Shown here piece by piece: positions 186-48,756 of a DNA stretch of 64,000 bases. The notes below the pieces were generated by a model that had not been told where the DNA came from, made no database searches, and worked only from the letters and a program-made list of their open reading frames with translations. The translations under genes and the position numbers were made by a program. This DNA comes from Candidatus Harrisonbacteria bacterium RIFCSPLOWO2_01_FULL_44_18 (GTDB lineage Bacteria > Patescibacteriota > Minisyncoccia > UBA6257 > WO2-44-18): contig MHJJ01000014.1 in NCBI GenBank assembly GCA_001817915.1, forward strand, positions 3,695 to 67,694, given 5' to 3'. Each line of letters begins with the position of its first letter. Positions within the stretch are counted from its first letter, which is position 1.

Positions 186-1337
186 TTATTTTTTGATAAT
201 TTCATTGAATAGTTTTAGAGTTTGGCGCGCCGTGTTCGGCCAATTAAATTTTTGAACATTCCGCAAGCCGGCTTCCTGAAGTCTTTTTTTGAGAGCGGGG
301 TTATCTAAAATTTTTTTAACGGCTTCCGTTAATTCTTCAACCCGCCAGGGGTCTATTAAAATAGCCGATTGACCCAAGATTTCCGGAAGGGAAGCGCGAT
401 CGGCCGCGATTACCGGACAGCCACAGGCCTGAGCTTCAAGCGGCGGGAAGCCGAATCCTTCAAAAAAAGAAGGATAGATAAACACCTCAGCTAAATTATA
501 TAGCAAAACTCGATCTTCGCCGGAAACCGGACCAAAAAGCGCGATATCTTTACCGTAAGACGATTTGCCGATTTCGTTGGCGATGTTTTGATAAAGCCAA
601 CCCGGCCGGCCGGCCAAAATAAGTTTTAAATCTTTGAAACGCGGATTGCTTTTTAGGGCGTTAAAAGCGCGAATGATAGCCGGGATATTTTTTCTCGGTT
701 CCAATGTGCCTAAATATAAAATAAAAGGCGAATCTAGCTTGTGTTTGCCGCGAAAATCTTTTAGGCGCCGATCATCAGCCGACATTTTTTTAAATTGATC
801 ATCAACGCCCGAATAGATGACCGAAATTTTTTCTTCGGGTACGGCCAGCAAGTTTACGAGGTCTGATTTTGTAAATTCGGAAACAGCGATTATTTTTGCC
901 GCTTCCTGGGCTTGCTTTTTGTAATTCTGGAGCCAATGCCAAAATTTTTGTTTTTGGGAAAAGAAATACGGATGGCGCAAAAAAGAAAGATCGTGGAAGG
1001 TAATGACGCGGGGCGTTTCCGTCTTGGCCAATATGTTAAAATGCGGGCTAAAAATTAAATCGGCCTCGATAAAACGATCAAGTTTAGGCCAGGAAAGAAA
1101 GCGGCTTGAAACTTCAAAAATTTTATTCGGAATTTTCCAATCGATAATTTTTAGAGATTGGTAATTGGTAATTGGTAATTGGTAATTTAACGGTTGCTTA
1201 CGTAGGCCGCTGTAAAACAAAAAATAGCGATTAGCCGAATCAACGGCCAAAAGCGTTTTTAATAAATTACGGGCGTATTCTTCAATCCCAGAAAGACCCC
1301 CGCGCGTTAATACCCGCGCGTCAAAGATTATTTTCAT
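186..1337 (-). CDS. glycosyltransferase family 1 (GT4-like)
   Basis: 383-aa ORF. C-terminal EGFGFPPLEAQACGCPVIA motif typical of GT1 glycosyltransferases. Carries an in-frame tandem repeat at 1158-1188. Confidence 0.8.
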   Translation of the reverse strand: MKIIFDARVLTRGGLSGIEEYARNLLKTLLAVDSANRYFLFYSGLRKQPLNYQLPITNYQSLKIIDWKIPNKIFEVSSRFLSWPKLDRFIEADLIFSPHFNILAKTETPRVITFHDLSFLRHPYFFSQKQKFWHWLQNYKKQAQEAAKIIAVSEFTKSDLVNLLAVPEEKISVIYSGVDDQFKKMSADDRRLKDFRGKHKLDSPFILYLGTLEPRKNIPAIIRAFNALKSNPRFKDLKLILAGRPGWLYQNIANEIGKSSYGKDIALFGPVSGEDRVLLYNLAEVFIYPSFFEGFGFPPLEAQACGCPVIAADRASLPEILGQSAILIDPWRVEELTEAVKKILDNPALKKRLQEAGLRNVQKFNWPNTARQTLKLFNEIIKK

Positions 1338-1411
1338 ACAATCAATTTTTACTGTATGCTATATTTAGCGATTTGACAAAATAAGTCAGAGACTTTTCAA
1401 GGAGAAAAAAG

Positions 1412-2218
1412 ATGGTCGTTGACGGACGGGCGATAGCGCGAAAGATAATCAAAAGACTGCGCGCTCAAAAAACTCCGGCTAAAACTTTGGTGGCTTTGAT
1501 AGTTGACGGCGCCAGTTCGGCGGAGAAGTTTCTTGTTCAAAAGGAAAAAATCGCGAAAAAGCTCGGAGTGAATTTCAAAATCTGCCGATTTTCCGCTTTG
1601 ACGGCAACCACAGAATCAATTTTGAAATCACTGCGGGATTATTGCGGATCGGAAAATGTCGGCGGCGTGATCATCGAACGGCCATTGCCCGTTTTCATTG
1701 ACGTCAGAATGCTATTGAAAGAAATTACGCCCGCCAAAAATGTGGAAGCAGTTAATGAATTGGCGTTGCTCGTTGAGCCGGCGACCAAAACTTTTTTTAC
1801 CATTTTGAGCGAAATTAAACGCGATCTTGCCGGGCAAAATATCGCGGCGATTGGGAGAAGCGAAACCGTCGCCCTTCCCATCGGCAGATTTTTGAATAAA
1901 GAGAGAGAAAGATTGAAGTACCAATCCTTTACAATTATTCCGGCCAGGGAACTTTATAAACGCGCCTGGACAGAATGCTTGAAAAGCGCGGATATCGTTG
2001 TCGCGGCCGCCCGCATCCCCAATTTGATTACCGAAGAAAAAATAAAAGAAGGAGTGGTAGTCATCGACTTCGGTAAAAATGTTGATTTTGAAAACTGTAA
2101 AAATAGGGCATCTTTCATCACTCCGCCTCACGGAGGCGTTGGCCCGATTCTCGTAGCGCACGTATTTTCTAACTTCTACGCTCTGAATGGATCAACCCCT
2201 TTTTCTCTAATTTGTTAG
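1412..2218 (+). CDS. folD: bifunctional 5,10-methylene-THF dehydrogenase/cyclohydrolase
   Basis: 268-aa ORF with GRSETVALPIGRFL and C-terminal TPPHGGVGPILVAHVF motifs, FolD-like. SD-like GGAGAAAAAAGATG upstream. Confidence 0.75.
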   Translation: MVVDGRAIARKIIKRLRAQKTPAKTLVALIVDGASSAEKFLVQKEKIAKKLGVNFKICRFSALTATTESILKSLRDYCGSENVGGVIIERPLPVFIDVRMLLKEITPAKNVEAVNELALLVEPATKTFFTILSEIKRDLAGQNIAAIGRSETVALPIGRFLNKERERLKYQSFTIIPARELYKRAWTECLKSADIVVAAARIPNLITEEKIKEGVVVIDFGKNVDFENCKNRASFITPPHGGVGPILVAHVFSNFYALNGSTPFSLIC

Positions 2219-2246
2219 CGCCCCGATTAATCGCCGGGGCGTTTTA
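2217..2246 (+). terminator. rho-independent terminator after folD
   Basis: GC hairpin gcgccccgattaatcgccggggcg followed by TTTT. Confidence 0.6.
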
Positions 2247-2291
2247 TAATTTCTGCCAGAATAACAGCCCATTAGTATTTTATTGATCCCG

Positions 2292-2323
2292 TACTTCTAT
2301 TTCACAATCGGAATATAGAAGTA
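2292..2323. promoter_or_regulatory. 32-bp palindromic motif TACTTCTAT-N-ATAGAAGTA upstream of rplS
   Basis: Inverted repeat tacttctat...tatagaagta. A near-identical copy lies at 54723-54754 upstream of pheS and a related core at 14715-14735 upstream of leuS. Confidence 0.5.
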
Positions 2324-2456
2324 TTAACTTGAACGGTTATACGCCCCCTTGTAGCCAGTTTATTTTTATAGTAGGATATATCTATTGTTATATTGTATGG
2401 TTTGACGCGGCTCACCATAAAATGGCACGAATGGTAATCATCATGCGAAAAATCTT

Positions 2457-2846
2457 ATGATTGATTCTGAAACTAACAAAAAAATAAAGCCGGGCGCCGT
2501 GGTGCGTGTTTGGGAGAAAATACTCGCCGAGGGCGGGTCTTCGCCCGACGCCTCGTCAAAGGCAAGCGCGTCTCGGGAGCGCGCTTCTAGTGGAAAAGAA
2601 AGCGATAAATTCCGCTTTAGCAAGTTTGAAGGCCTTGTTTTGGCAAGAAAGCACGGCAATGAGTCCGGAGCCAGTTTTATTGTTCGCGCCACCGTTGCCG
2701 GCGTGGGCGTTGAAAAAGTTTATCCTATTCATTCGCCAATGATTGAAAAAGCGGAAATTATCAGTTCGCCTAAAAAAGTGCGCCGCGCCAAACTTTATTA
2801 CGTTCGCGGACTTTCTAAAAAAGAAACACGCCAGAAATTGGGATAA
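2457..2846 (+). CDS. rplS: 50S ribosomal protein L19
   Basis: KPGAVVRVWEKI ... GVGVEKVYPIHSPMIEKAEII ... RRAKLYYVRG match L19 conserved blocks. Has a Ser/Ala-rich internal insertion. Confidence 0.8.
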   Translation: MIDSETNKKIKPGAVVRVWEKILAEGGSSPDASSKASASRERASSGKESDKFRFSKFEGLVLARKHGNESGASFIVRATVAGVGVEKVYPIHSPMIEKAEIISSPKKVRRAKLYYVRGLSKKETRQKLG

Positions 2847-2876
2847 TGATTGAAAAACGGGATATTTTTAAATCCT

Positions 2877-2958
2877 GCCCAGGTGGAGGAATCGGCAGAC
2901 TCACTACTTTGAGGTGGTAGCGCCGTAAGGCATGCGGGTTCGAATCCCGCCCTGGGCA
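2877..2958 (+). tRNA. tRNA-Leu (anticodon GAG), type II
   Basis: Cloverleaf with acceptor GCCCAGG/CCTGGGC, anticodon loop TTGAGGT, long variable arm and T-arm GCGGGTTCGAATCCCGC. No encoded CCA. Close to E. coli tRNA-Leu(GAG). Confidence 0.85.
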
Positions 2959-2959
2959 C

Positions 2960-2987
2960 TTGACAAATTCTGTGGATATGCTATAAC
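2960..2987 (+). promoter_or_regulatory. sigma70-like promoter (TTGACA-16-TATAAC)
   Basis: cTTGACAAATTctgtggatatGCTATAAc. The same extended box GCTTGACAAATT...TGCTATAAT recurs at 22190-22217 and 13984-14010. Confidence 0.5.
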
Positions 2988-3079
2988 AGGGTTATACTTG
3001 AGTTGGGCGAGCTTATCGTGAGCTCGCTTGATAGCTCAAGGAATCAGTTCTTTGGCAAGGTTTTTGAGTAGGAGGCGCT

Positions 3080-3427
3080 ATGAGTGCTCTCACGATCGTT
3101 CTGGCGGCCAGCATTGTCATCATGGTTTTCGCGGCGGCCCTGATCTACAAGAGCAGGAAGTCCGGGAATCGCAGCGGCCTCGCGTCGGCGGATCAGCCCG
3201 CGCGTCCTCGCCCGAAGGTTCGGTTCGGCCAGTTCGAGACCGACCAACGGGTGGCCGTGCGTGGCATCGATCTCTTCGGGCGAGTCGAAGATCGCATGAT
3301 CGGCATGGGCAGGATCGTCGGCTTTGCCAATGGTGGCCGGGCGGTTCTTCAGATGGACAACCATCGGCCCGGCGTGTTCGTACGGCGAGTCATGCGCCGC
3401 CTCCGTTCGCTTGAGGTGCCTCGCTAG
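3080..3427 (+). CDS. hypothetical small membrane-anchored protein on GC-rich islet
   Basis: 115-aa ORF with a strong SD (AGGAGG) 6 nt upstream and an N-terminal TM helix. Local GC is about 65 % versus 40-45 % around it. A terminator follows on the same strand. Confidence 0.4.
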   Translation: MSALTIVLAASIVIMVFAAALIYKSRKSGNRSGLASADQPARPRPKVRFGQFETDQRVAVRGIDLFGRVEDRMIGMGRIVGFANGGRAVLQMDNHRPGVFVRRVMRRLRSLEVPR

Positions 3428-12129: not shown

Positions 12130-13155
12130 ATGATACTTATTGATTCTCATACCCATATCCAATTTCCGGTTTATGATAATGATCGGGAGGCGGTTATTGA
12201 ACGCGCGAGAAACGCGGGGGTTTACCCCCACACCAAACGAGCATTGGCGTTAGAAGAAAATGATGCTCGTTATGGTGTGGGGGTAAAAATGATTTGCGTC
12301 GGCACTCAAGCATCAACTTCTGAATCGGCAATTAAGCTCGCGGAAAAATATCCAGAGGATGTTTGGGCGACAATCGGCTACCATCCCAATCATGTTGTGC
12401 CAGCGCAACATGCGCAGACTTTGCGGACTGGACGCAGACTTGCGCAGACAAATTGGTATCATGATCAGAAGGAGCAGAAATCGGCAAATCCGCCGCGATT
12501 TAATATTGAAGAACTGCGCAGGCTTGCTCAGCATCCGAAAGTCGTGGCGATCGGGGAGTGCGGTTTGGATTACTACCGACTAGCCGCTAGCGATTTGCCA
12601 CTAGCCACTAGGGTTAAAGAAAAACAGAAAGAAATTTTTTTGCAGCAAGTCGAACTTGCGCAGGAATTAAATAAAGCATTGATGATCCATTGCCGGCCAT
12701 CCAAAGGCACCAACGACGCCTACGAAGATTTGCTGAAGATTTTACAGGAGATTAAATTTTCTCAGAATGTAATTATTCATTTTTATGTTGGTTCTGTTGA
12801 AATGGCACGAAAATTTTTAGATGCCGGATTTTACCCCCACACCAAACGAGCATTATCGGGGGGCGTCAATGGCGCGAATGCTCGTTATGGTGCGGGGGTT
12901 TATTTTACCTTCGGTGGCGTGATTACATTTTCACGCGACTATGACGAAATTATAAAATACATTCCTCTGGATCGAATTCTTCTGGAAACCGACGCGCCCT
13001 ATGTCGCGCCGGAACCGTATCGCGGCCGCCGCAACGAACCGGCATACATCGTGGAAACCGCTAAAAAACTAGCGGAAGTTAAAAATGTAAGCTTTGAAAA
13101 AGTGGCTGAAATAACTACCAAAACTGCTGGACAGATTTTTAAGTTGCCATTATAA
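12130..13155 (+). CDS. tatD: TatD-family metal-dependent DNase with in-frame repeat insertions
   Basis: Begins LIDSHTHI and carries the GECGLDYY and ETDAPY motifs. It is about 80 aa longer than typical TatD because of three in-frame repeat insertions. Confidence 0.8.
   Translation: MILIDSHTHIQFPVYDNDREAVIERARNAGVYPHTKRALALEENDARYGVGVKMICVGTQASTSESAIKLAEKYPEDVWATIGYHPNHVVPAQHAQTLRTGRRLAQTNWYHDQKEQKSANPPRFNIEELRRLAQHPKVVAIGECGLDYYRLAASDLPLATRVKEKQKEIFLQQVELAQELNKALMIHCRPSKGTNDAYEDLLKILQEIKFSQNVIIHFYVGSVEMARKFLDAGFYPHTKRALSGGVNGANARYGAGVYFTFGGVITFSRDYDEIIKYIPLDRILLETDAPYVAPEPYRGRRNEPAYIVETAKKLAEVKNVSFEKVAEITTKTAGQIFKLPL
12221..12287. mobile_element. palindromic miniature element (CCCCACACCAAACGAG family), copy 1, inside tatD in-frame
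   Basis: TIRs tttacccccacaccaaacgagcat / atgctcgttatggtgtgggggtaaa. No stop codon; translated as VYPHTKRALALEENDARYGVGVK. Confidence 0.7.
12829..12906. mobile_element. palindromic miniature element, copy 2, inside tatD in-frame
   Basis: ttttacccccacaccaaacgagcat...atgctcgttatggtgcgggggtttatttt; translated as FYPHTKRALSGGVNGANARYGAGVYF. Confidence 0.7.
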
Positions 13156-17400: not shown

Positions 17401-19206
17401 ATGTGCGGAATTGCCGGTTATATAGGCAAAAAAGAGGGGTTGCCGATTGTATTCGGGACTTTGCGGAAATTAGAGTACAGGGGCTACGACTCGGCAGGCG
17501 TAGCTTATTTTGTTAAAAGACGAAAGTCTGGGGTCAAGGGCGTGAAGGTTGTAAAGACTGTTGGGAAATTAGATAATTTAGAGCAAGCTATTTTTGATAA
17601 AAAGTCTTCATTGGCCGCGGCCGCTATCGGACATACGAGATGGGCTACCCATGGGCCTCCCAATGAAATTAACGCTCATCCCCACTGGGACTGCAAAAAA
17701 GAAATTTTTCTCGTTCATAACGGCATCATTGAAAATTATAAAGAATTAAAAGAAGAATTATTAAAAGCGGGGCATCATTTCCGTTCACAAACCGATACTG
17801 AAGTGGCAGTTCATTTGATTGAAGAATATGGTTTTGAGAAAGCTCTTAAGAAAATAGTTGGAGCTTATGCGTTTGCCATAATTTATAGAAAAGAACCAAA
17901 CAAGATTTATTTTGCTCGCCTGGGAAGTCCATTGGTAGTGGGAGTGGGACAGGAAGAGTATTATTTAGCTTCAGATCCAACGGCATTAGCTGGCTTAGTA
18001 AAGCGAGTTATCTATTTAAAGGATGGGCAAAGAGGGGTTTTGAGTCTCGGCGGATTTAAAATCGGTCCGACTAGACCAAAAGTCGAGCCGCTCGATATTG
18101 ATCCGGAACAGGCCAGAAAAGGCGACTTTCCGCATTTTATGCTCAAGGAAATTTTCGAGGGTCCGGAGGTGGTTAGATCGGCTTTGCGCGGCAGGCTTTT
18201 CCCCGAAAGGAATTTAGTGAAACTCGGCGGCCTAGAAAGCGCGGCGGATAAATTAAAAAAGATTAGACGGTTGGAAATTATTTCATGCGGCACCTCTTAT
18301 TATTCGGGCCTAGCCGGCGAACTGCTGTTTGAAGAGCTGTCTGAATTGCCGGCTGAAATACACCTTGCTTCCGAGTATCGATATCGGAAAGATCCAACCC
18401 AAAAGAGAGCCGCCTGTGTATTTATTTCGCAATCCGGCGAAACCGCCGACACTTTAGCGGCCCTAAAAAAAGCCGGCAGTCGCGGATATTTAACATTGGG
18501 GGTAGTAAATGCCGTCGGCTCAAGCATTGCTCGCGCTACCGAGGCCGGCGTGTACAATCATGCCGGACCGGAAATCGGGGTTGCTTCCACCAAAGCTTTT
18601 TTATCGCAACTCAGCGTTTTGGCGCTTATGTCTTTGTTTTTGTCAAAAAATAAGAAAAGCAAAACGGCTAAAGAAGTAATGAGAGAACTTTCCGCGATTC
18701 CCGGTAAAATTAAATTAATTTTGGCGCAAAGCGATAAAATAAAAGAGCTGGCTAAAAAATATTTAAAATATAAAAACTTTCTATACTTGGGAAGAGGATA
18801 TAATTACCCGACAGCGTTGGAAGGCGCGTTGAAAATAAAAGAAATCGCTTATGTTCATGCCGAAGGATACGCCGGCGGCGAAATGAAACACGGCCCCATC
18901 GCGCTGGTAGATAAAAATTTCCCAATCGTTGCCATCGTCACTCAAAATGGCGTTTATGAAAAAATGATTTCTAACCTGGAAGAAATCAAAGCTCGCGGCG
19001 GCCCCATTTTGGCGATCGCCACCGTCGGGGATAAAAACATCGGCAAGCTGGCTGACGATGTTTTTTATGTTCCAAAAACCGTTAGGCAACTTGAGCCGAT
19101 GTTGAATGTCGTGCCGCTGCAGCTTTTCGCTTATTACTTTGGCGCGCTGAAAGGTTATGATGTAGATAAGCCAAGAAATTTAGCAAAAAGTGTTACAGTA
19201 GAATAA
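17401..19206 (+). CDS. glmS: glutamine--fructose-6-phosphate aminotransferase
   Basis: N-terminal MCGIAGY (Cys nucleophile) and two SIS domains. C-terminal end is DVDKPRNLAKSVTVE. Confidence 0.9.
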   Translation: MCGIAGYIGKKEGLPIVFGTLRKLEYRGYDSAGVAYFVKRRKSGVKGVKVVKTVGKLDNLEQAIFDKKSSLAAAAIGHTRWATHGPPNEINAHPHWDCKKEIFLVHNGIIENYKELKEELLKAGHHFRSQTDTEVAVHLIEEYGFEKALKKIVGAYAFAIIYRKEPNKIYFARLGSPLVVGVGQEEYYLASDPTALAGLVKRVIYLKDGQRGVLSLGGFKIGPTRPKVEPLDIDPEQARKGDFPHFMLKEIFEGPEVVRSALRGRLFPERNLVKLGGLESAADKLKKIRRLEIISCGTSYYSGLAGELLFEELSELPAEIHLASEYRYRKDPTQKRAACVFISQSGETADTLAALKKAGSRGYLTLGVVNAVGSSIARATEAGVYNHAGPEIGVASTKAFLSQLSVLALMSLFLSKNKKSKTAKEVMRELSAIPGKIKLILAQSDKIKELAKKYLKYKNFLYLGRGYNYPTALEGALKIKEIAYVHAEGYAGGEMKHGPIALVDKNFPIVAIVTQNGVYEKMISNLEEIKARGGPILAIATVGDKNIGKLADDVFYVPKTVRQLEPMLNVVPLQLFAYYFGALKGYDVDKPRNLAKSVTVE

Positions 19207-19442
19207 AGGGCTTTGTCTGAAATTTCGAGCCGCAAGCGATGAAATTTCAGGAACAAAACCTTTACCCCCTCACTCATTCTAGTAAAGATATGGCAATAGC
19301 GCCCAATCAGAGACGTAAGTCGGCTTCGCCTCTACTGATTCTGAAATACCGCAATCGTTGCTGGAATGAGTGAGGGGGTGCTCGATTTTGTGGCTAAATT
19401 TTCATCGCCACAAACGGGCTCGAAAATTTAGACAAAATCGGC
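19207..19442. repeat. nested inverted-repeat structured element
   Basis: ccccctcactcattc...gaatgagtgagggggt, plus outer arms tcgagccgcaagcgatgaaattt / aaattttcatcgccacaaacgggctcga. Confidence 0.4.
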
Positions 19443-24464: not shown

Positions 24465-24713
24465 CATCAATTTAGTGAGCCAATTCCCGCCCATCTTCTT
24501 TGTTACTCGTCGCTTATGTGCCTATTGGCACACTACGCTCCTCGCGCCTTGAATCTGGACAGGAATTGGCTCACCCGAAGGGAAGAGAGAATTTGAGCCA
24601 AGTTCGAGGAACGACGAGGAGGTTGTGCTGGTAAGCACATCGACGAGGAGTGACAAAGAAATTGGCTCAAATTCTCTCTTCTAAATTTGACGCCAGTTCG
24701 AATCCTGCTCTCC
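24444..24713. mobile_element. MITE-like element with about 33-bp TIRs whose ends resemble a tRNA T-arm/acceptor (GTTCGAATCCTGCTCTCC)
   Basis: ggagagcaggattcgagctagcatcaatttag ... ctaaatttgacgccagttcgaatcctgctctcc. A short copy of about 70 bp lies at 48682-48752. Confidence 0.6.
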
Positions 24714-30167: not shown

Positions 30168-30390
30168 AAGACCTCTTGCTTAATAATTTTTCGTTACGAA
30201 ATGGATAAATTTGAGGCGAAACAAAGCGAAAATTTCGAGGCATATACAAGAGTATCTGTCGAGAAATTTTCGCAAAGTTGTAGCCCAAATTTATACATTG
30301 CAGTAGAAAAGGTTATTACGCAAGAGGTCTATATTCTGGTATACTAAAGCTAGATTGTCGTTAAGGCAAATTCACTGAACTAAGAACTAA

Positions 30391-31470: not shown

Positions 31471-31612
31471 CGAAGTAATCGCGAACAACGCGAATCTATG
31501 CAAAATAATGCTAATAATTTATTCGCGTTATTTCGAATCAGATTAGCATTATTCGCGATTACTCCGATTCGTGTTATTTTGAAACAAATTAGCATTATTC
31601 GCGATTACTCCG
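31471..31612 (+). repeat. 145-bp structured intercistronic element, copy 1 (pilM stop to pilN start)
   Basis: cgaagtaatcgcgaacaacgcgaa...aatgctaataatttattcgcgttatttcgaatcagattagcattattcgcgattactccgATG, with several internal inverted repeats. Near-identical copies lie at 34958-35108 and 36183-36331. Confidence 0.85.
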
Positions 31613-34957: not shown

Positions 34958-35108
34958 TATAATTAACGAAGTAATCGCGAACAACGCGAACCTATGCAAA
35001 ATAATGCTAATAATTTATTCGCGTTATTTCGAATCAAATTAGCATTATTCACGATTACTCCGATTCGTGTTATTTTGAAACAAATTAGCATTATTCGCGA
35101 TTACTCCG
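34958..35108 (+). repeat. 145-bp structured intercistronic element, copy 2 (pilB stop to pilT start)
   Basis: About 95 % identical to copy 1. Confidence 0.85.
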
Positions 35109-36182: not shown

Positions 36183-36331
36183 CGAAGTAATCGCGAACAA
36201 CGCGAACCTATGCAAAATAATGCGAATACTGTTAACGGAGCAATCGCTAATAATGCGAATTTTGGCAAAATAATGCTAATAATTTATTCGCGTTATTTTG
36301 AATCAGATTAGCATTATTAGCGATTACTTCG
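36183..36331 (+). repeat. structured intercistronic element, copy 3 (variant; pilT stop to pilC start)
   Basis: Same 5' block taacgaagtaatcgcgaacaacgcgaacctatgcaaaataatgc and same 3' block aatgctaataatttattcgcgttattttgaatcagattagcattatt. The central segment is diverged. Confidence 0.8.
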
Positions 36332-46934: not shown

Positions 46935-47378
46935 ATGGCTTTCTTGATTCAGTTTCAGCGTCGGGCGATTGAAAGCTTGAAATCGCATCTTTTTCGGCCG
47001 CGGCACGCGATTGAAGATATTCATCACTTGCGGTCAGTTATTTCGGGCAATTTCACCTGTGACGGAGTATCGCTTGACATACTGGGCGTGAGCAAGGGAG
47101 TCGGTACCTGCTCGGATATTCACGGAATGGATGTTTTGGTTTTGGGATGGAGTAAAAGTCATAGATGCCGCGCGGCCAACGAGATATCGCTTGAGAAGAT
47201 CAAGCGTTGCGCTTACGCGGTTCTATTGCGCCAAGCAACCGAAGAGGAAGCGAAAAGCCAGCATTTTGCTCCCGATGTCGCTGTTTTATGCGTTGAATTA
47301 TTGAGAATAACAGATATCGCGTCCGACTATACCAATTTTCAATCAACCGGCCTTTACGCTTGCTATGCCGCGATATAG
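46935..47378 (+). CDS. hypothetical protein
   Basis: 147 aa. Start set at the ATG 2 nt after the upstream stop (GTGACTATGG). Tightly coupled to the 46582 gene. Confidence 0.45.
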   Translation: MAFLIQFQRRAIESLKSHLFRPRHAIEDIHHLRSVISGNFTCDGVSLDILGVSKGVGTCSDIHGMDVLVLGWSKSHRCRAANEISLEKIKRCAYAVLLRQATEEEAKSQHFAPDVAVLCVELLRITDIASDYTNFQSTGLYACYAAI

Positions 47379-47386
47379 TTTTTGCT

Positions 47387-47447
47387 AAACCCCCACACCA
47401 AATGAGTTTCAAGATTCTATAAAAACTCGTTATGGTGTGGGGGTAAA
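47387..47447. mobile_element. palindromic miniature element (CCCCACACCAAA family), copy 3, intergenic
   Basis: aaacccccacaccaaatgag...ctcgttatggtgtgggggtaaa, followed by a terminator-like hairpin cccgccttcgagcggg. Confidence 0.7.
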
Positions 47448-47509
47448 CCCGCCTTCGAGCGGGTTTTATTATTATTGACTAGTATCGCGGCTGGGAGTAT
47501 TTTTAAGAC

Positions 47510-48664
47510 ATGTTTATCACTTCGGAATCAGTTACCGAAGGCCATCCCGACAAGATGGCCGATCAGATTTCCGATGCCATTTTAGACGAAGTTTTAAGGC
47601 GCGACCCTTATGGCCGCGTGGCTGTTGAAACTCTTCTTACTAAAAATTTAGCGGTTATTGCCGGCGAGGTGACCACGCGCCATCGTTTTGACGCTGAAAA
47701 AATCGCGCGCAAAGTTATCAAAGAAATTGGCTATATCGATTCTGCCTATGGTTTTGATTCCAAGACTTCAAAAGTCCAAGTATTTTTAAATCAGCAATCG
47801 CCGGATATTGCTCAAGGAGTAAGTCAATATCGCGAGGAAAAACCGGAAAGCGTGGGCGCCGGCGATCAGGGCATTATGTATGGCTATGCCACGAATGAGA
47901 CGCCGGCTCTAATGCCGCTGCCGATTTTTTTAGCCCATAATTTAACTCGCCGTTTAGCCGAGGTTAGAAAAAAGGGAATTTTGAAATATTTAAGGCCAGA
48001 TGGTAAGGCGCAGGTAACAATTGAATATCAAAACGGCCGGCCCCGGCGAGCGCATACGATCTTGATCTCAACTCAGCACGCGCCGGAAGTGAAGCACGAG
48101 CAGATTAAAAAAGATGTTATCAATAAAGTAGTGGGCGCGGTTTTGTCAAAGAAATTAGTTGATAAAAATACGCGATTTTTGGTTAATCCGACCGGCCGTT
48201 TCGTAATCGGCGGGCCGGAAGGGGACACCGGTCTTACGGGGCGAAAAATAATCGTTGATACTTATGGTGGAGTTGCTTCTCATGGCGGCGGCGCTTTTTC
48301 CGGCAAGGATCCGACAAAAGTTGATCGCTCCGCCGCTTACGCCGCGCGATGGGTGGCTAAAAATATCATTGCCGCCGGTTTAGCCGATAAAGTCCAAACG
48401 CAAGTGGCTTATGCCATTGGCATTCCAGAGCCGTTGGCGGTGAATATTGATACTTTTGGCACGGGTAAAATACCAGACGAGAAATTGTCCGGAGTTGTCG
48501 CCGAAGTTTTTGATTTGCGCCCCGGAATGATTATTAAAAACCTGCGGCTCCGCCGGCCAATTTATCGCCAAGTGGCCGCTTATGGACATTTTGGAAGAAT
48601 TGATCTTGATTTACCCTGGGAAAAAACCGATAAAGTAGGGGAGCTGAAAAGACGGTTAAAGTAG
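47510..48664 (+). CDS. metK: S-adenosylmethionine synthetase
   Basis: [20 protein letters not shown] and [22 protein letters not shown] motifs. Confidence 0.9.
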
Positions 48665-48681
48665 CGTCAATCCCGCGCCTA

Positions 48682-48752
48682 GGAGAGCAGGATTCGAACT
48701 AGCGTCAAATTTAGAAGAGAGAATTTGAGCCAAGTTCGAATCCTGCTCTCCT
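48682..48752. mobile_element. short copy of the tRNA-end-like MITE (GGAGAGCAGGATTCGAAC TIRs)
   Basis: ggagagcaggattcgaactagcgtcaaatttagaagagagaatttgagccaagttcgaatcctgctctcc. Confidence 0.6.
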
Positions 48753-48756
48753 ATTA

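What the first reader, a model, noticed from the sequence alone, without database searches (positions are those of the whole stretch)
12221..12906. Palindromic miniature elements inserted in-frame, twice, inside tatD (RPE-like behaviour)
Two copies of a 66-78-bp element with TIRs TTTACCCCCACACCAAACGAGCAT / ATGCTCGTTATGGTG(T/C)GGGGGTAAA sit inside the TatD reading frame at 12221-12287 and 12829-12906, without stop codons. They add about 22 and 26 residues (…YPHTKRAL…ARYGVGV…). A third copy lies intergenic at 47387-47447.

In-frame palindromic element insertion into conserved genes is best known from Rickettsia palindromic elements. Here it affects a CPR-like genome and a nuclease fold.
Basis: seen in the sequence. 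Interest (0 to 1): 0.75.

Follow-up and report, generated by a model that had tools for sequence, protein, structure and literature searches.

The report
In-frame hairpin mobile elements inside tatD
Two copies of a tiny hairpin-shaped mobile DNA element sit in frame inside an otherwise intact TatD nuclease gene of a Harrisonbacteria (CPR) genome; the same element family is inserted in frame in many housekeeping genes across CPR bacteria, and its full-length form is a 305-bp unit that encodes only an 85-residue GIY-YIG nuclease.

Summary
TatD (12130-13155, +) carries two hairpin elements, 61 and 67 nt long. They add 21 and 23 residues that are absent from the 21 closest homologues and from solved TatD structures. 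A third copy is intergenic (47389-47444), and a sibling hairpin lies at 19264-19379. Both inserts fall in helix-to-strand loops on the face of the TIM barrel opposite the catalytic residues, which are all conserved.

A genome-collection scan found 100 paired elements in 49 mostly Patescibacteria assemblies. Twenty-eight short copies lie inside long ORFs (UvrA, LeuRS, LigA, Mfd, DnaG, TsaD, MurB and others). Of these, 27 have length 3n+1 and most are read in one phase (PHTKR...RYGVGV). Flanks follow T-NN-[ACCCCC...GGGGGT]-NN-A, and the NN pair is a direct repeat in 54 of 100 elements against 14 expected. That indicates a TNNA target with a 2-bp duplication, so each insertion adds 3n nucleotides.

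The same 21-bp bulged arms flank an 85-aa single-domain GIY-YIG gene at fixed distances, in a 305-bp unit. The TatD inserts therefore look like non-autonomous (MITE-like) derivatives of a minimal GIY-YIG element. The behaviour resembles Rickettsia palindromic elements (RPE), and the architecture resembles Ssn/SRM nuclease-hairpin pairs. Mobilisation by the nuclease is inferred, not shown.

The parts
12130..13155 (+). tatD (TatD/YcfH-family metal-dependent hydrolase), 341 aa, intact ORF that hosts two elements
   Evidence: ORF list. Pfam PF01026 matches positions 1-253 of 253, E 1e-73. H7, H9, E143, H187, H217 and D288 are invariant in the 22-sequence alignment. The identical protein is found in Harrisonbacteria assemblies.
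12221..12287 (+). Element copy 1. Core ACCCCC...GGGGGT is 12224-12284 (61 nt = 3n+1), with flanks T-TT / AA-A. It is translated as (V)YPHTKRALALEENDARYGVG(V), residues 31/32-51/52, a 21-codon insertion.
   Evidence: It replaces a single residue of solved YcfH 6l25. In the AF2 model it lies between helix 19-27 and strand 51-56, with pLDDT below 50.
12830..12902 (+). Element copy 2. Core is 12833-12899 (67 nt = 3n+1), flanked by T-TT ... TT-A (a 2-bp direct repeat). It is translated as YPHTKRALSGGVNGANARYGAGV, residues 235-257, a 23-codon insertion. The right arm carries one mismatch (GGTGCGGGGGT).
   Evidence: In the AF2 model it lies between helix 223-231 and strand 257-261. The predicted uninterrupted site GCCGGATTTTATTTTACCTTCGG exists at the homologous position of another TatD gene (L121).
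47386..47447 (+). Element copy 3, intergenic. Core is 47389-47444 (56 nt, not 3n+1), flanked by T-AA ... AA-A. The inner stem carries compensatory changes relative to copies 1 and 2 (GAGCAT/ATGCTC becomes GAGTTT/AAACTC).
   Evidence: It lies between an ORF ending at 47378 and the next ORF starting at 47510.
47445..47476 (+). Terminator-like hairpin plus T-rich tail immediately after copy 3. This is host sequence, not part of the element.
19264..19379 (+). Sibling hairpin element of 116 nt, intergenic downstream of the 601-aa ORF ending at 19206. Its termini are ACCCCCTCACTCATTC ... GAATGAGTGAGGGGGT. The outer ACCCCC.CAC / GTG.GGGGGT is shared with the tatD elements, but the inner arm differs.

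Best explanation
The two tatD inserts are non-autonomous (MITE-like) copies of a hairpin mobile element that is widespread in Patescibacteria. The element is T-NN-[ACCCCCACACCA-AAYGAG-xxx ... xxx-CTCRTT-N-TGGTGTGGGGGT]-NN-A. It has a 21-bp stem with a 1-nt bulge around a variable interior. The autonomous form is a 305-bp unit in which the same arms enclose only an 85-aa single-domain GIY-YIG nuclease gene. Inferred mechanism: the nuclease recognises the arms or hairpin and makes a 2-nt staggered cut at TNNA sites, as other GIY-YIG enzymes do. Host repair or ligation then joins the element, which duplicates the central NN. Because cores of 3n+1 nt plus the 2-bp duplication add whole codons, and the arms are stop-free in 5 of 6 frames, copies that land in genes can be translated. 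They persist where the extra 20-26 residues sit in tolerant surface loops. In TatD both inserts lie in helix-to-strand loops on the non-catalytic face of the TIM barrel, so the enzyme probably stays functional. Shown here: the anatomy of the element, its absence from homologues, its family-wide in-frame pattern, the TNNA/2-bp signature and the fixed GIY-YIG association. Inferred: that the GIY-YIG protein is the mobilising enzyme, the cut geometry, and that the inserts are translated.
For: Insertion relative to homologues and solved structures. Loop location and conserved catalytic residues. Family: 100 non-redundant paired elements in 49 assemblies, nearly all labelled Patescibacteria. In-frame signature: 47 of 67 short elements are 3n+1 (p = 9e-10), as are 27 of 28 inside ORFs of at least 150 aa (p = 2e-12); 22 of those 28 are read in the phase xAC-CCC-CAC-ACC. 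Host ORFs are genuine housekeeping genes: UvrA, a ClpB-type AAA+ ATPase, LeuRS, LigA, Mfd, DnaG, TsaD (twice), MurB, a Mur ligase, Asd and Fpg. Target and TSD: T at -3 in 91% and A at +3 in 86% of elements; the NN pair is a direct repeat in 54 of 100, against 14.2 +/- 3.3 expected and a maximum of 27 in 20,000 permutations; inverted NN pairs are depleted, 7 against 16. The predicted empty site for tatD copy 2 exists uninterrupted in a homologue. Stem positions 19-21 vary between copies while Watson-Crick pairing is kept in 68-72 of 79. GIY-YIG link: the 304-309-nt forms encode an 85-aa PF01541-only protein. Y5, Y16, R26, H30, N31, E62 and N64 are invariant in 26 sequences. Five of five homologues chosen by protein similarity alone are flanked by the arms, which start 28 nt before the ATG and end 18-19 nt after the stop (one left arm is degenerate). 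Long and short forms co-occur in the same assemblies, and one assembly holds several copies of the 76-nt subfamily at different sites. Medium-sized forms keep similarity to the end of the long form.
Against: No GIY-YIG gene lies in the 64-kb window, and the rest of this genome could not be scanned. No nuclease activity, excision event or filled/empty polymorphism within a population was observed. In 40 of 100 elements the NN pair is neither a direct nor an inverted repeat; tatD copy 1 itself has an inverted pair (TT/AA). A recurrent non-matching combination, TTC...AAA (14 cases), is unexplained. A nuclease alone cannot carry out strand transfer. Short-element interiors are unrelated to the GIY-YIG gene, and copies 1 and 2 share arms but not loops, so neither is a recent copy of the other. 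Short elements show no orientation bias relative to GC skew. Translation of the inserts is inferred only from the frame and stop-codon statistics.
Confidence: 0.7

Rival explanations
1. The hairpins are Ssn/SRM- or REP-like genomic repeats, and their GIY-YIG partner is a domesticated ssDNA-specific nuclease. That nuclease would modulate transformation or recombination, as shown for Neisseria SsnA/NTS. The repeats would then spread by recombination, gene conversion or uptake of foreign DNA rather than by nuclease-driven transposition.
For: Ssn proteins are single-domain GIY-YIG enzymes of about 94 aa. [quoted passage not shown] The CPR protein is likewise single-domain and 85 aa.
Against: The 2-bp direct repeats at a TNNA site, present at almost four times the chance rate, are an insertion signature that recombination does not predict. 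The same 76-nt subfamily sits at unrelated sites within one assembly. NTS repeats are rarely in genes (2%), whereas here 28 of 67 short copies are in ORFs. The SRM consensus is absent near the long elements.
Confidence: 0.15
2. The hairpin acts at the RNA level. It would be an intervening sequence removed from the mRNA, or an RNase III, attenuator or stability element, and would not be translated.
For: The hairpins are very stable as RNA (-32 to -42 kcal/mol). Copy 2 is followed by a U-rich stretch. CPR rRNA genes are known to carry excised insertions, some encoding GIY-YIG proteins.
Against: If the element were removed there would be no selection for length or frame. Yet 27 of 28 genic copies are 3n+1, all 28 (by the selection criterion) are stop-free in the host frame, and most share one phase. 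There was no Rfam match. None of 20 loci with long or medium elements lies in an rRNA gene.
Confidence: 0.05
3. The short hairpins are mobilised by some other transposase, such as a DDE or HUH IS elsewhere in the genome. The GIY-YIG gene would be only a passenger captured between the arms.
For: Most prokaryotic MITEs depend on IS transposases. The window itself has no GIY-YIG gene.
Against: Every 85-aa GIY-YIG gene examined sits between the arms at the same spacing, in 304-309 bp with no room for another gene, in many unrelated genomic contexts. No larger element with these arms was seen: the two pairs of 812-1161 nt are made of separate hairpins. The catalytic residues are invariant.
Confidence: 0.05
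4. The segments are lineage-specific, selected protein loops (a functional TatD elaboration), or an assembly artefact, rather than mobile DNA.
For: The ORF is intact and the catalytic residues are conserved.
Against: The segments are absent from all 21 closest homologues and from solved structures. The same DNA hairpin is found intergenically and in dozens of unrelated genes. The identical sequence was assembled independently on 12 contigs. All five substitutions in the central 2.3 kb of a population variant fall in insert 2, as expected for an unconstrained segment.
Confidence: 0.03

Closest known systems
Rickettsia palindromic elements (RPEs; Ogata et al. 2000, 2002, as summarised in PMC10969869)
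   Same: Both are palindromic repeats that insert in frame into unrelated, often essential, protein-coding genes and are carried as extra peptide segments compatible with the fold. Both occur in small genomes.
   Different: RPEs are about 100-150 bp and were described in Rickettsia. No mobilising enzyme or TSD is mentioned in the review consulted. The present elements are 56-88 bp, occur in Patescibacteria, show a TNNA/2-bp signature and share their arms with a GIY-YIG gene. Sequence homology to RPEs was not tested.
Ssn nucleases with NTS/SRM hairpin repeats (Chenal et al. 2025, PMC11893778)
   Same: Both have a single-domain GIY-YIG protein of about 85-94 aa whose gene is bracketed by hairpin-forming repeats that are also scattered through the genome. 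The Ssn authors themselves note the IS-like and REP/RAYT-like architecture.
   Different: In Ssn systems each repeat is its own 20-50-nt hairpin and the gene lies between separate hairpins. Here the gene lies inside one hairpin, whose two arms form the TIRs. The published SRM consensus does not match (0 hits). NTS repeats are rarely genic (2%), and no TSD or in-frame behaviour was reported. Membership of cd10448 could not be tested; the nearest solved relatives are UPF0213 proteins.
Prokaryotic MITEs (for example Correia, ERIC, Nezha; review PMC10969869)
   Same: Shared features are small size, terminal inverted repeats, short target duplication, multiple copies, no coding capacity, and TIRs shared with a coding partner.
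   Different: The partner is not an IS with a DDE or HUH transposase. It is a 305-bp unit with a lone GIY-YIG nuclease. The TIRs pair into a single long bulged hairpin. Copy lengths show 3-nt periodicity.
REP/BIME elements with RAYT (IS200/IS605-like Y1 transposases)
   Same: A small gene is flanked by the same palindromic repeats that are dispersed in the genome, with hairpin recognition presumed.
   Different: There is no HUH/Y1 protein. The GTAG/CGTC-type heads are absent. REPs are extragenic, whereas these elements are frequently intragenic and in frame.
GIY-YIG homing endonucleases (I-TevI type) and the GIY-YIG-encoding insertions in CPR rRNA genes (PMC11270868)
   Same: They share the GIY-YIG catalytic domain. 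A 2-nt staggered cut is typical of the superfamily (background knowledge). Non-intron GIY-YIG insertions in CPR were judged to be 'outside the context of homing'.
   Different: Homing endonucleases carry a C-terminal DNA-binding domain (about 250 aa in total), have long specific targets and lack TIRs. The present protein is 85 aa, and the only target consensus seen is TNNA. No rRNA context was found in 20 loci.

Membership tests
MITE (non-autonomous TIR element) | Terminal inverted repeats conserved among copies | tested here: met
   The arms are 21 bp with a 1-nt bulge. The outer 12 nt are near-invariant. Positions 19-21 covary and stay paired in 68-72 of 79 elements.
MITE (non-autonomous TIR element) | Target-site duplication | tested here: met
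   There are 54 direct 2-nt flank matches in 100 elements, against 14.2 +/- 3.3 by permutation. Window copies 2 and 3 show the duplication; copy 1 does not.
MITE (non-autonomous TIR element) | Multiple copies at unrelated sites, small, with no transposase ORF | tested here: met
   There are 3 copies plus 1 sibling in 64 kb. Sizes are 56-88 nt.
MITE (non-autonomous TIR element) | An autonomous partner with the same TIRs that encodes the mobilising enzyme | tested here: inconclusive
   A partner with identical arms exists and encodes a GIY-YIG nuclease. Whether that protein mobilises the element is untested. No partner lies in the window.
Rickettsia palindromic elements | In-frame insertion of a palindromic repeat into conserved ORFs at positions compatible with the fold | tested here: met
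Rickettsia palindromic elements | Sequence homology to RPE families and occurrence in Rickettsia | not tested
The hosts here are Patescibacteria.
Ssn / SRM system | Single-domain GIY-YIG protein of about 90 aa | tested here: met
   The protein is 85 aa. PF01541 is the principal Pfam domain, with only weak overlapping hits to the related GIY-YIG-like models T5orf172 and MUG113. About 320 homologues were found, and nearly all of the 120 listed are 85 aa.
Ssn / SRM system | [quoted passage not shown] | not testable with these tools
   Neither CDD nor an SsnA sequence was available. The nearest solved structures are UPF0213 proteins 1zg2 and 1ywl (E 8e-7 and 2e-4). NCBIfam gave nothing above its cutoff.
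Ssn / SRM system | Gene flanked by repeats that match the SRM consensus HGTCWYN(0-2)YYVSBRHN(0-5)WNVSBRGN(0-2)RNCYNB | tested here: not met
   There were 0 matches within +/-300 nt of 9 long elements, and 7 in 826 kb overall.
Ssn / SRM system | Site-specific cleavage of ssDNA only, next to the hairpin | not testable with these tools
   This needs biochemistry.
REP / RAYT | Associated HUH (Y1) transposase-like gene and GTAG/CGTC-headed REPs | tested here: not met
   The associated gene is GIY-YIG. The arms start with ACCCCC.
GIY-YIG homing endonuclease | Catalytic domain plus a DNA-binding domain, a long specific homing site, and no TIRs | tested here: not met
   The 85-aa protein has no extra domain. 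Insertion sites are unrelated apart from TNNA. TIRs are present.
TatD/YcfH hydrolase (host gene) | Full-length PF01026 match with conserved metal-binding His/Glu/Asp residues | tested here: met

The most novel reading that the evidence does not exclude
The 305-bp unit (two 21-bp bulged arms around an 85-aa GIY-YIG gene) would be an autonomous DNA transposon of a previously unrecognised class, and possibly the smallest known. It would move by 2-nt staggered cleavage at TNNA followed by host ligation or repair. Its 3n-compatible, stop-free miniature derivatives would have colonised and be translated within housekeeping genes throughout Patescibacteria. This would also give a mechanistic model for RPE-like coding palindromes and for the spread of Ssn-associated hairpin repeats.
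Probability: 0.35. Interest if true: 0.9.

Novelty: new variant of a known kind. Interest (0 to 1): 0.75.

Why it matters
It extends 'selfish DNA inside protein-coding genes', so far a Rickettsia curiosity, to the Candidate Phyla Radiation. There it affects core genes such as UvrA, LeuRS, LigA, DnaG, TsaD and Mur enzymes, which may account for some of the unexplained insertions in CPR proteins. It also ties such coding palindromes to a specific candidate enzyme, a lone 85-aa GIY-YIG nuclease related in architecture to the recently discovered Ssn ssDNA nucleases, whose biological role outside Neisseria is open. The TNNA/2-bp duplication is direct sequence evidence that such nuclease-hairpin pairs behave as mobile elements, and this can be tested with a very small protein and short oligonucleotides. 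On the practical side, these inserts inflate and perturb CPR protein alignments and gene calls: start codons are sometimes called inside the arms. A compact hairpin-guided nuclease may also be of use as a molecular tool.

Tried and rejected
(1) Rfam at gathering thresholds found only tRNAs in the window. In 20 loci with long or medium elements it found only tRNAs and one L10 leader. This gives no support for a known RNA family or for an rRNA-insertion context.

(2) The window was searched by tblastn for a GIY-YIG gene, and none was found.

It found the exact 23-mer, but in a distant TatD homologue (L121), not in a near-identical strain. It therefore supports the inferred pre-insertion sequence but is not a filled/empty polymorphism.

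(4) The viral-contig scan gave four single-arm hits and no paired element, so there is no evidence for phage carriage.

(5) The SRM regex of Chenal et al. gave no match.

(6) Orientation against GC skew showed no bias for short elements (29 vs 20). Lagging-strand-specific insertion of the IS200/IS605 kind is therefore not supported. All seven long elements have the ORF co-directional with the leading strand.

(7) blastn-short between medium and long interiors gave one weak hit. Only a MAFFT alignment shows the residual similarity near one end, so 'deletion derivative' rests on weak evidence.

(8) NCBIfam gave nothing above its cutoff for the 85-aa protein.

(9) Seven literature searches found no description of this CPR element. 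The supplements of the Ssn paper are not held, so SsnA could not be compared.

The single-arm hits in non-CPR genomes are at about the rate expected by chance for this pattern in 596 Gb (my estimate).
Full report
OBSERVATION. The window encodes a 341-aa ORF at 12130-13155 (+) that matches Pfam TatD_DNase over the whole model (E 1e-73). An identical protein is annotated in Candidatus Harrisonbacteria assemblies from the Rifle aquifer. It occurs under two NCBI protein accessions and on 12 contigs, so the sequence has been assembled independently. The 20-mer TACCCCCACACCAAACGAGC, with up to 3 mismatches, occurs three times in the window (12223, 12832, 47388) against 0 expected. Each site is the left arm of a long hairpin with a free energy of -32 to -42 kcal/mol and z-scores of -4 to -8.8 on either strand. 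The refined cores are 12224-12284 (61 nt), 12833-12899 (67 nt) and 47389-47444 (56 nt). A fourth hairpin with the same outer termini but a different inner arm lies at 19264-19379.

THE INSERTS ARE INSERTIONS. An alignment with the 21 closest TatD homologues (57-69% identity over aligned columns, 274-334 aa) shows two gaps that only the window protein fills. One is 21 residues after RARNAG (VYPHTKRALALEENDARYGVG). The other is 23 residues after DAGF (YPHTKRALSGGVNGANARYGAGV). Solved TatD/YcfH structures also lack both: query residues 32-52 correspond to one residue of 6l25. The residues that are invariant in the alignment include H7, H9, E143, H187, H217 and D288; that these are the metal ligands of the TatD fold is background knowledge.

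An AlphaFold2 model (pTM 0.80) gives a confident TIM barrel. Insert 1 lies between helix 19-27 and strand 51-56. Insert 2 lies between helix 223-231 and strand 257-261. Both have pLDDT below 50. These are alpha-to-beta loops at the N-terminal ends of the strands, which is the face opposite the catalytic C-terminal ends (general TIM-barrel knowledge). One caveat applies: the low confidence is expected in any case, because no aligned sequence contains the inserts.

A CPR-WIDE FAMILY. Allowing one mismatch in the outer 12-mer, I recovered 100 non-redundant paired elements in 49 assemblies. Nearly all are labelled Patescibacteria, including Harrison-, Nealson-, Lipton-, Doudna-, Wildermuth-, Staskawicz- and Wolfebacteria, Paceibacterota, Minisyncoccales and many 'Saccharibacteria'-labelled MAGs. 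Single-arm hits in other phyla look like chance matches.

The stem is 21 bp with a single bulged base after position 12 on one arm (T in 54, G in 19, C in 4, A in 2). Positions 19-21 differ between copies (for example G 30, C 23, T 13, A 6 at position 19) while Watson-Crick pairing is kept in 68-72 of 79 elements. Window copy 3 is an example of such compensatory change.

Sixty-seven elements are short (50-100 nt), and 47 of these have length 3n+1 (p = 9e-10). Twenty-eight short elements are spanned by ORFs of at least 150 aa, and 27 of those 28 are 3n+1 (p = 2e-12). In 22 of the 28 the host reads the element in the phase xAC-CCC-CAC-ACC ... GGT-GTG-GGG-GTx, which gives (Y/H/N/D)PHTKR...(R/S)(Y/S/F)GVGV as in TatD. 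The host ORFs are genuine conserved genes by Pfam: UvrA (two inserts), a ClpB-type AAA+ ATPase, LeuRS, a class-V aminotransferase, LigA, Mfd, DnaG, a TPP enzyme, a Mur ligase, MurB, TsaD (twice), Asd, a radical-SAM protein, Fpg, an Fe-hydrogenase and an amino-acid kinase. Several domain matches are split in two by the insert. One assembly (CAYNVZ01) holds several copies of a 76-nt subfamily at different sites, so short elements proliferate as short elements.

TARGET AND DUPLICATION. The base at -3 is T in 91% of elements and the base at +3 is A in 86%. The two bases in between are identical on the two sides, as a direct repeat, in 54 of 100 elements. Permutation of the flanks gives 14.2 +/- 3.3 with a maximum of 27 in 20,000 trials. 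Inverted matches are depleted, 7 against 16 expected. The simplest reading is insertion into TNNA with duplication of NN, mostly at TTTA/TAAA, TTCA/TGAA and TTGA/TCAA.

A core of 3n+1 nt plus 2 duplicated bases adds whole codons. That explains the 3-nt periodicity. It also explains the flanking residues: the codon xTN gives a hydrophobic residue and NAC gives Y, H, N or D. TatD copy 2 (T-TT-core-TT-A) and copy 3 (T-AA-core-AA-A) fit this pattern. Copy 1 (T-TT-core-AA-A) does not and looks like a palindromic extension. The predicted pre-insertion sequence of copy 2, GCCGGATTTTATTTTACCTTCGG, occurs uninterrupted at the homologous A-G-F-Y-F-T-F-G position of another TatD gene (L121). The T and the A are therefore host bases.

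THE CODING PARTNER. Nine pairs are 299-309 nt long. On the strand where the bulged arm comes first they contain one ORF of 85 aa (MFFVYILKSKKD.ELYIGYTNDLRKRLKEHNLG...), and one copy, L040, appears to be disrupted. This ORF is a GIY-YIG catalytic domain with no further domain (PF01541, E 1e-13 to 1e-16). About 320 homologues were retrieved. Nearly all of the 120 listed are exactly 85 aa, and those that carry a source name are from Patescibacteria or Parcubacteria. Y5, Y16, R26, H30, N31, E62 and N64 are invariant in 26 sequences; these correspond to the canonical GIY-YIG catalytic residues by background knowledge.

To avoid circularity I took five homologues chosen only by protein similarity and contig length and fetched their loci. 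All five genes are bracketed by the arms. The left arm begins 28 nt before the ATG and the right arm ends 18-19 nt after the stop. One left arm is decayed. Most are flanked by TGA|...|GAA, and they sit between unrelated housekeeping genes. Long and short forms co-occur in the same assemblies. Elements of 120-145 nt keep residual similarity to the ORF-distal end of the long form, which is weak evidence for an origin by deletion. The 64-kb window has no GIY-YIG gene, so its copies are non-autonomous as far as can be seen.

MECHANISM (INFERRED). GIY-YIG enzymes such as I-TevI and Eco29kI typically leave 2-nt overhangs (background knowledge). A 2-nt stagger at TNNA followed by host fill-in or ligation would give the duplication observed. 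I therefore propose that the 85-aa nuclease recognises the arms or hairpin and provides the breaks that mobilise both the 305-bp unit and, in trans, the short hairpins. In gene-dense CPR genomes, selection would then leave in genes only those copies that preserve the frame and sit in tolerant loops.

Several findings count against this or remain unexplained. In 40% of elements the flanks match in neither orientation. The combination TTC...AAA recurs. Interiors occur in both orientations relative to the bulge (L050 versus L002). Orientation relative to the host ORF is biased 23:5, while orientation relative to GC skew is not. Left flanks are enriched for GGGGT or GGAT. A lone nuclease also cannot perform strand transfer.

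RIVALS. (a) The system could be a domesticated Ssn-type ssDNA nuclease with its repeats spreading by recombination. The duplication signature, the multiple unrelated sites and the high genic fraction argue against this. (b) The hairpin could act or be removed at the RNA level. The frame and stop-codon statistics argue against removal, and no Rfam family matches. (c) Another transposase could mobilise the hairpins with GIY-YIG as a passenger. The invariant 305-bp architecture argues against this. (d) The segments could be a selected protein loop or an artefact. This is excluded. In a population variant (L122) the central 2.3 kb is identical to the window except for five substitutions, all in insert 2. 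This fits an unconstrained or error-prone segment, although assembly error cannot be excluded.

COMPARISON WITH WHAT IS KNOWN. In behaviour the element is like Rickettsia palindromic elements, which are palindromic repeats fused in frame into metabolic genes. Homology to RPEs was not tested.

In architecture the closest system is Ssn/SRM (Chenal et al. 2025). That system has single-domain GIY-YIG ssDNA nucleases of about 94 aa, whose genes are flanked by hairpin repeats present in hundreds of copies. Its authors note the IS-like layout and list Rickettsia and Wolbachia among repeat-rich genomes. The present element differs in four ways. The gene sits inside one hairpin rather than between separate hairpins. 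The SRM consensus is not met. NTS repeats are only 2% genic. No TSD was reported for Ssn. Membership of cd10448 could not be tested, and the nearest solved relatives are UPF0213 proteins.

The element meets the formal MITE criteria except for a proven mobilising enzyme. It is not REP/RAYT (no HUH protein) and it is not a classical homing endonuclease (no DNA-binding domain, no specific site, TIRs present). A survey of CPR rRNA insertions reported GIY-YIG-encoding, non-intron insertions 'outside the context of homing', together with short ORF-less insertions. These may be the same family, but none of 20 loci examined here is in an rRNA gene. Seven literature searches found no description of this element.

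VERDICT. The finding is real and the RPE-like reading is supported. The added value is threefold: a family-wide in-frame pattern across Patescibacteria, a TNNA/2-bp insertion signature, and a minimal GIY-YIG-encoding partner. I rate it a new variant of known kinds (coding MITEs and Ssn-like nuclease-hairpin pairs), with interest 0.75. The bolder reading is a new class of minimal GIY-YIG transposon, at probability about 0.35.

Noticed in passing
window 19264-19379: A 116-nt hairpin with termini ACCCCCTCACTCATTC ... GAATGAGTGAGGGGGT lies intergenic after the 601-aa ORF ending at 19206. It shares the outer ACCCCC.CAC ends with the tatD elements but has different inner arms. It is probably a sibling family with its own partner.
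   Followed up: partly
window 12395-12455 (TatD residues about 92-111): This is a third low-confidence segment of TatD, built from GCGCAGAC-type direct repeats. Homologues carry low-complexity segments of 0-25 residues at exactly this position (for example ADQNADTRG, HARTSQTERGLTQT). It may be another in-frame repeat family or a slippage hotspot.
   Followed up: partly
L122 (ENA k141_2093878), equivalent to window 12866-12894: A near-identical population variant differs from the window in its central 2.3 kb only by five substitutions. All five are in insert 2, three of them in the right arm, where they weaken the hairpin. This is either decay of the element or an assembly error at a palindrome.
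   Followed up: partly
L127, L129, L130, L135 (about 2970-3280 in each): Full-length GIY-YIG units are wedged between housekeeping genes. The upstream gene can end in the TGA at the left boundary (seen in L129). In L127, L129, L130 and L135 the downstream gene is called from a GTG inside the right arm (position 3269/3270). The element may therefore supply or distort start codons in annotations.
   Followed up: no
L050 7743-7818 versus L002 5199-5273, and other 73-79-nt copies: The interior carries two small hairpins with compensatory changes (for example GGCACC-GAAG-GGTGCC and TAAC-GAAG-TTA). It occurs in both orientations relative to identical bulged arms, as if it had been inverted by recombination between the arms.
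   Followed up: no
window 31471-31612, 34967-35108, 36183-36331: A different inverted-repeat family recurs here (CGAAGTAATCGCGAACAACGCGAAT / ATTAGCATTATTCGCGATTACTCCG), with several copies within 5 kb.
   Followed up: no
window 48680-48753 and 24582-24681: These palindromes contain AGTTCGAATCCTGCTCTCCTA, which resembles the 3' end of a tRNA, and share AATTTGAGCCAAGTTC. No tRNA is called at either position.
   Followed up: no
window 30169-30330: A large imperfect palindrome, with 79-nt arms that are 72% complementary and separated by 4 nt.
   Followed up: no
L121 3006-3911 (TatD) and 520-3009 (829-aa ORF); protein P0112: Other CPR proteins carry different Ala/Gly/Lys-rich in-frame segments that their relatives lack (EGLPAEASAKAG, PVRRATPQGDASGVSGG, YAKATEGEPAFAQATAGKQIS). 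This suggests that further families of coding palindromes exist in these genomes.
   Followed up: no
flanks of the 100 elements (loci L001-L120 and the window): The region 5-8 nt upstream of elements is G-rich (GGGGT, GGAT), and the downstream side shows the complementary bias (AACCCC, AATCC). The non-matching flank combination TTC...AAA recurs 14 times. Neither feature is explained by a simple TNNA/2-bp duplication model.
   Followed up: partly
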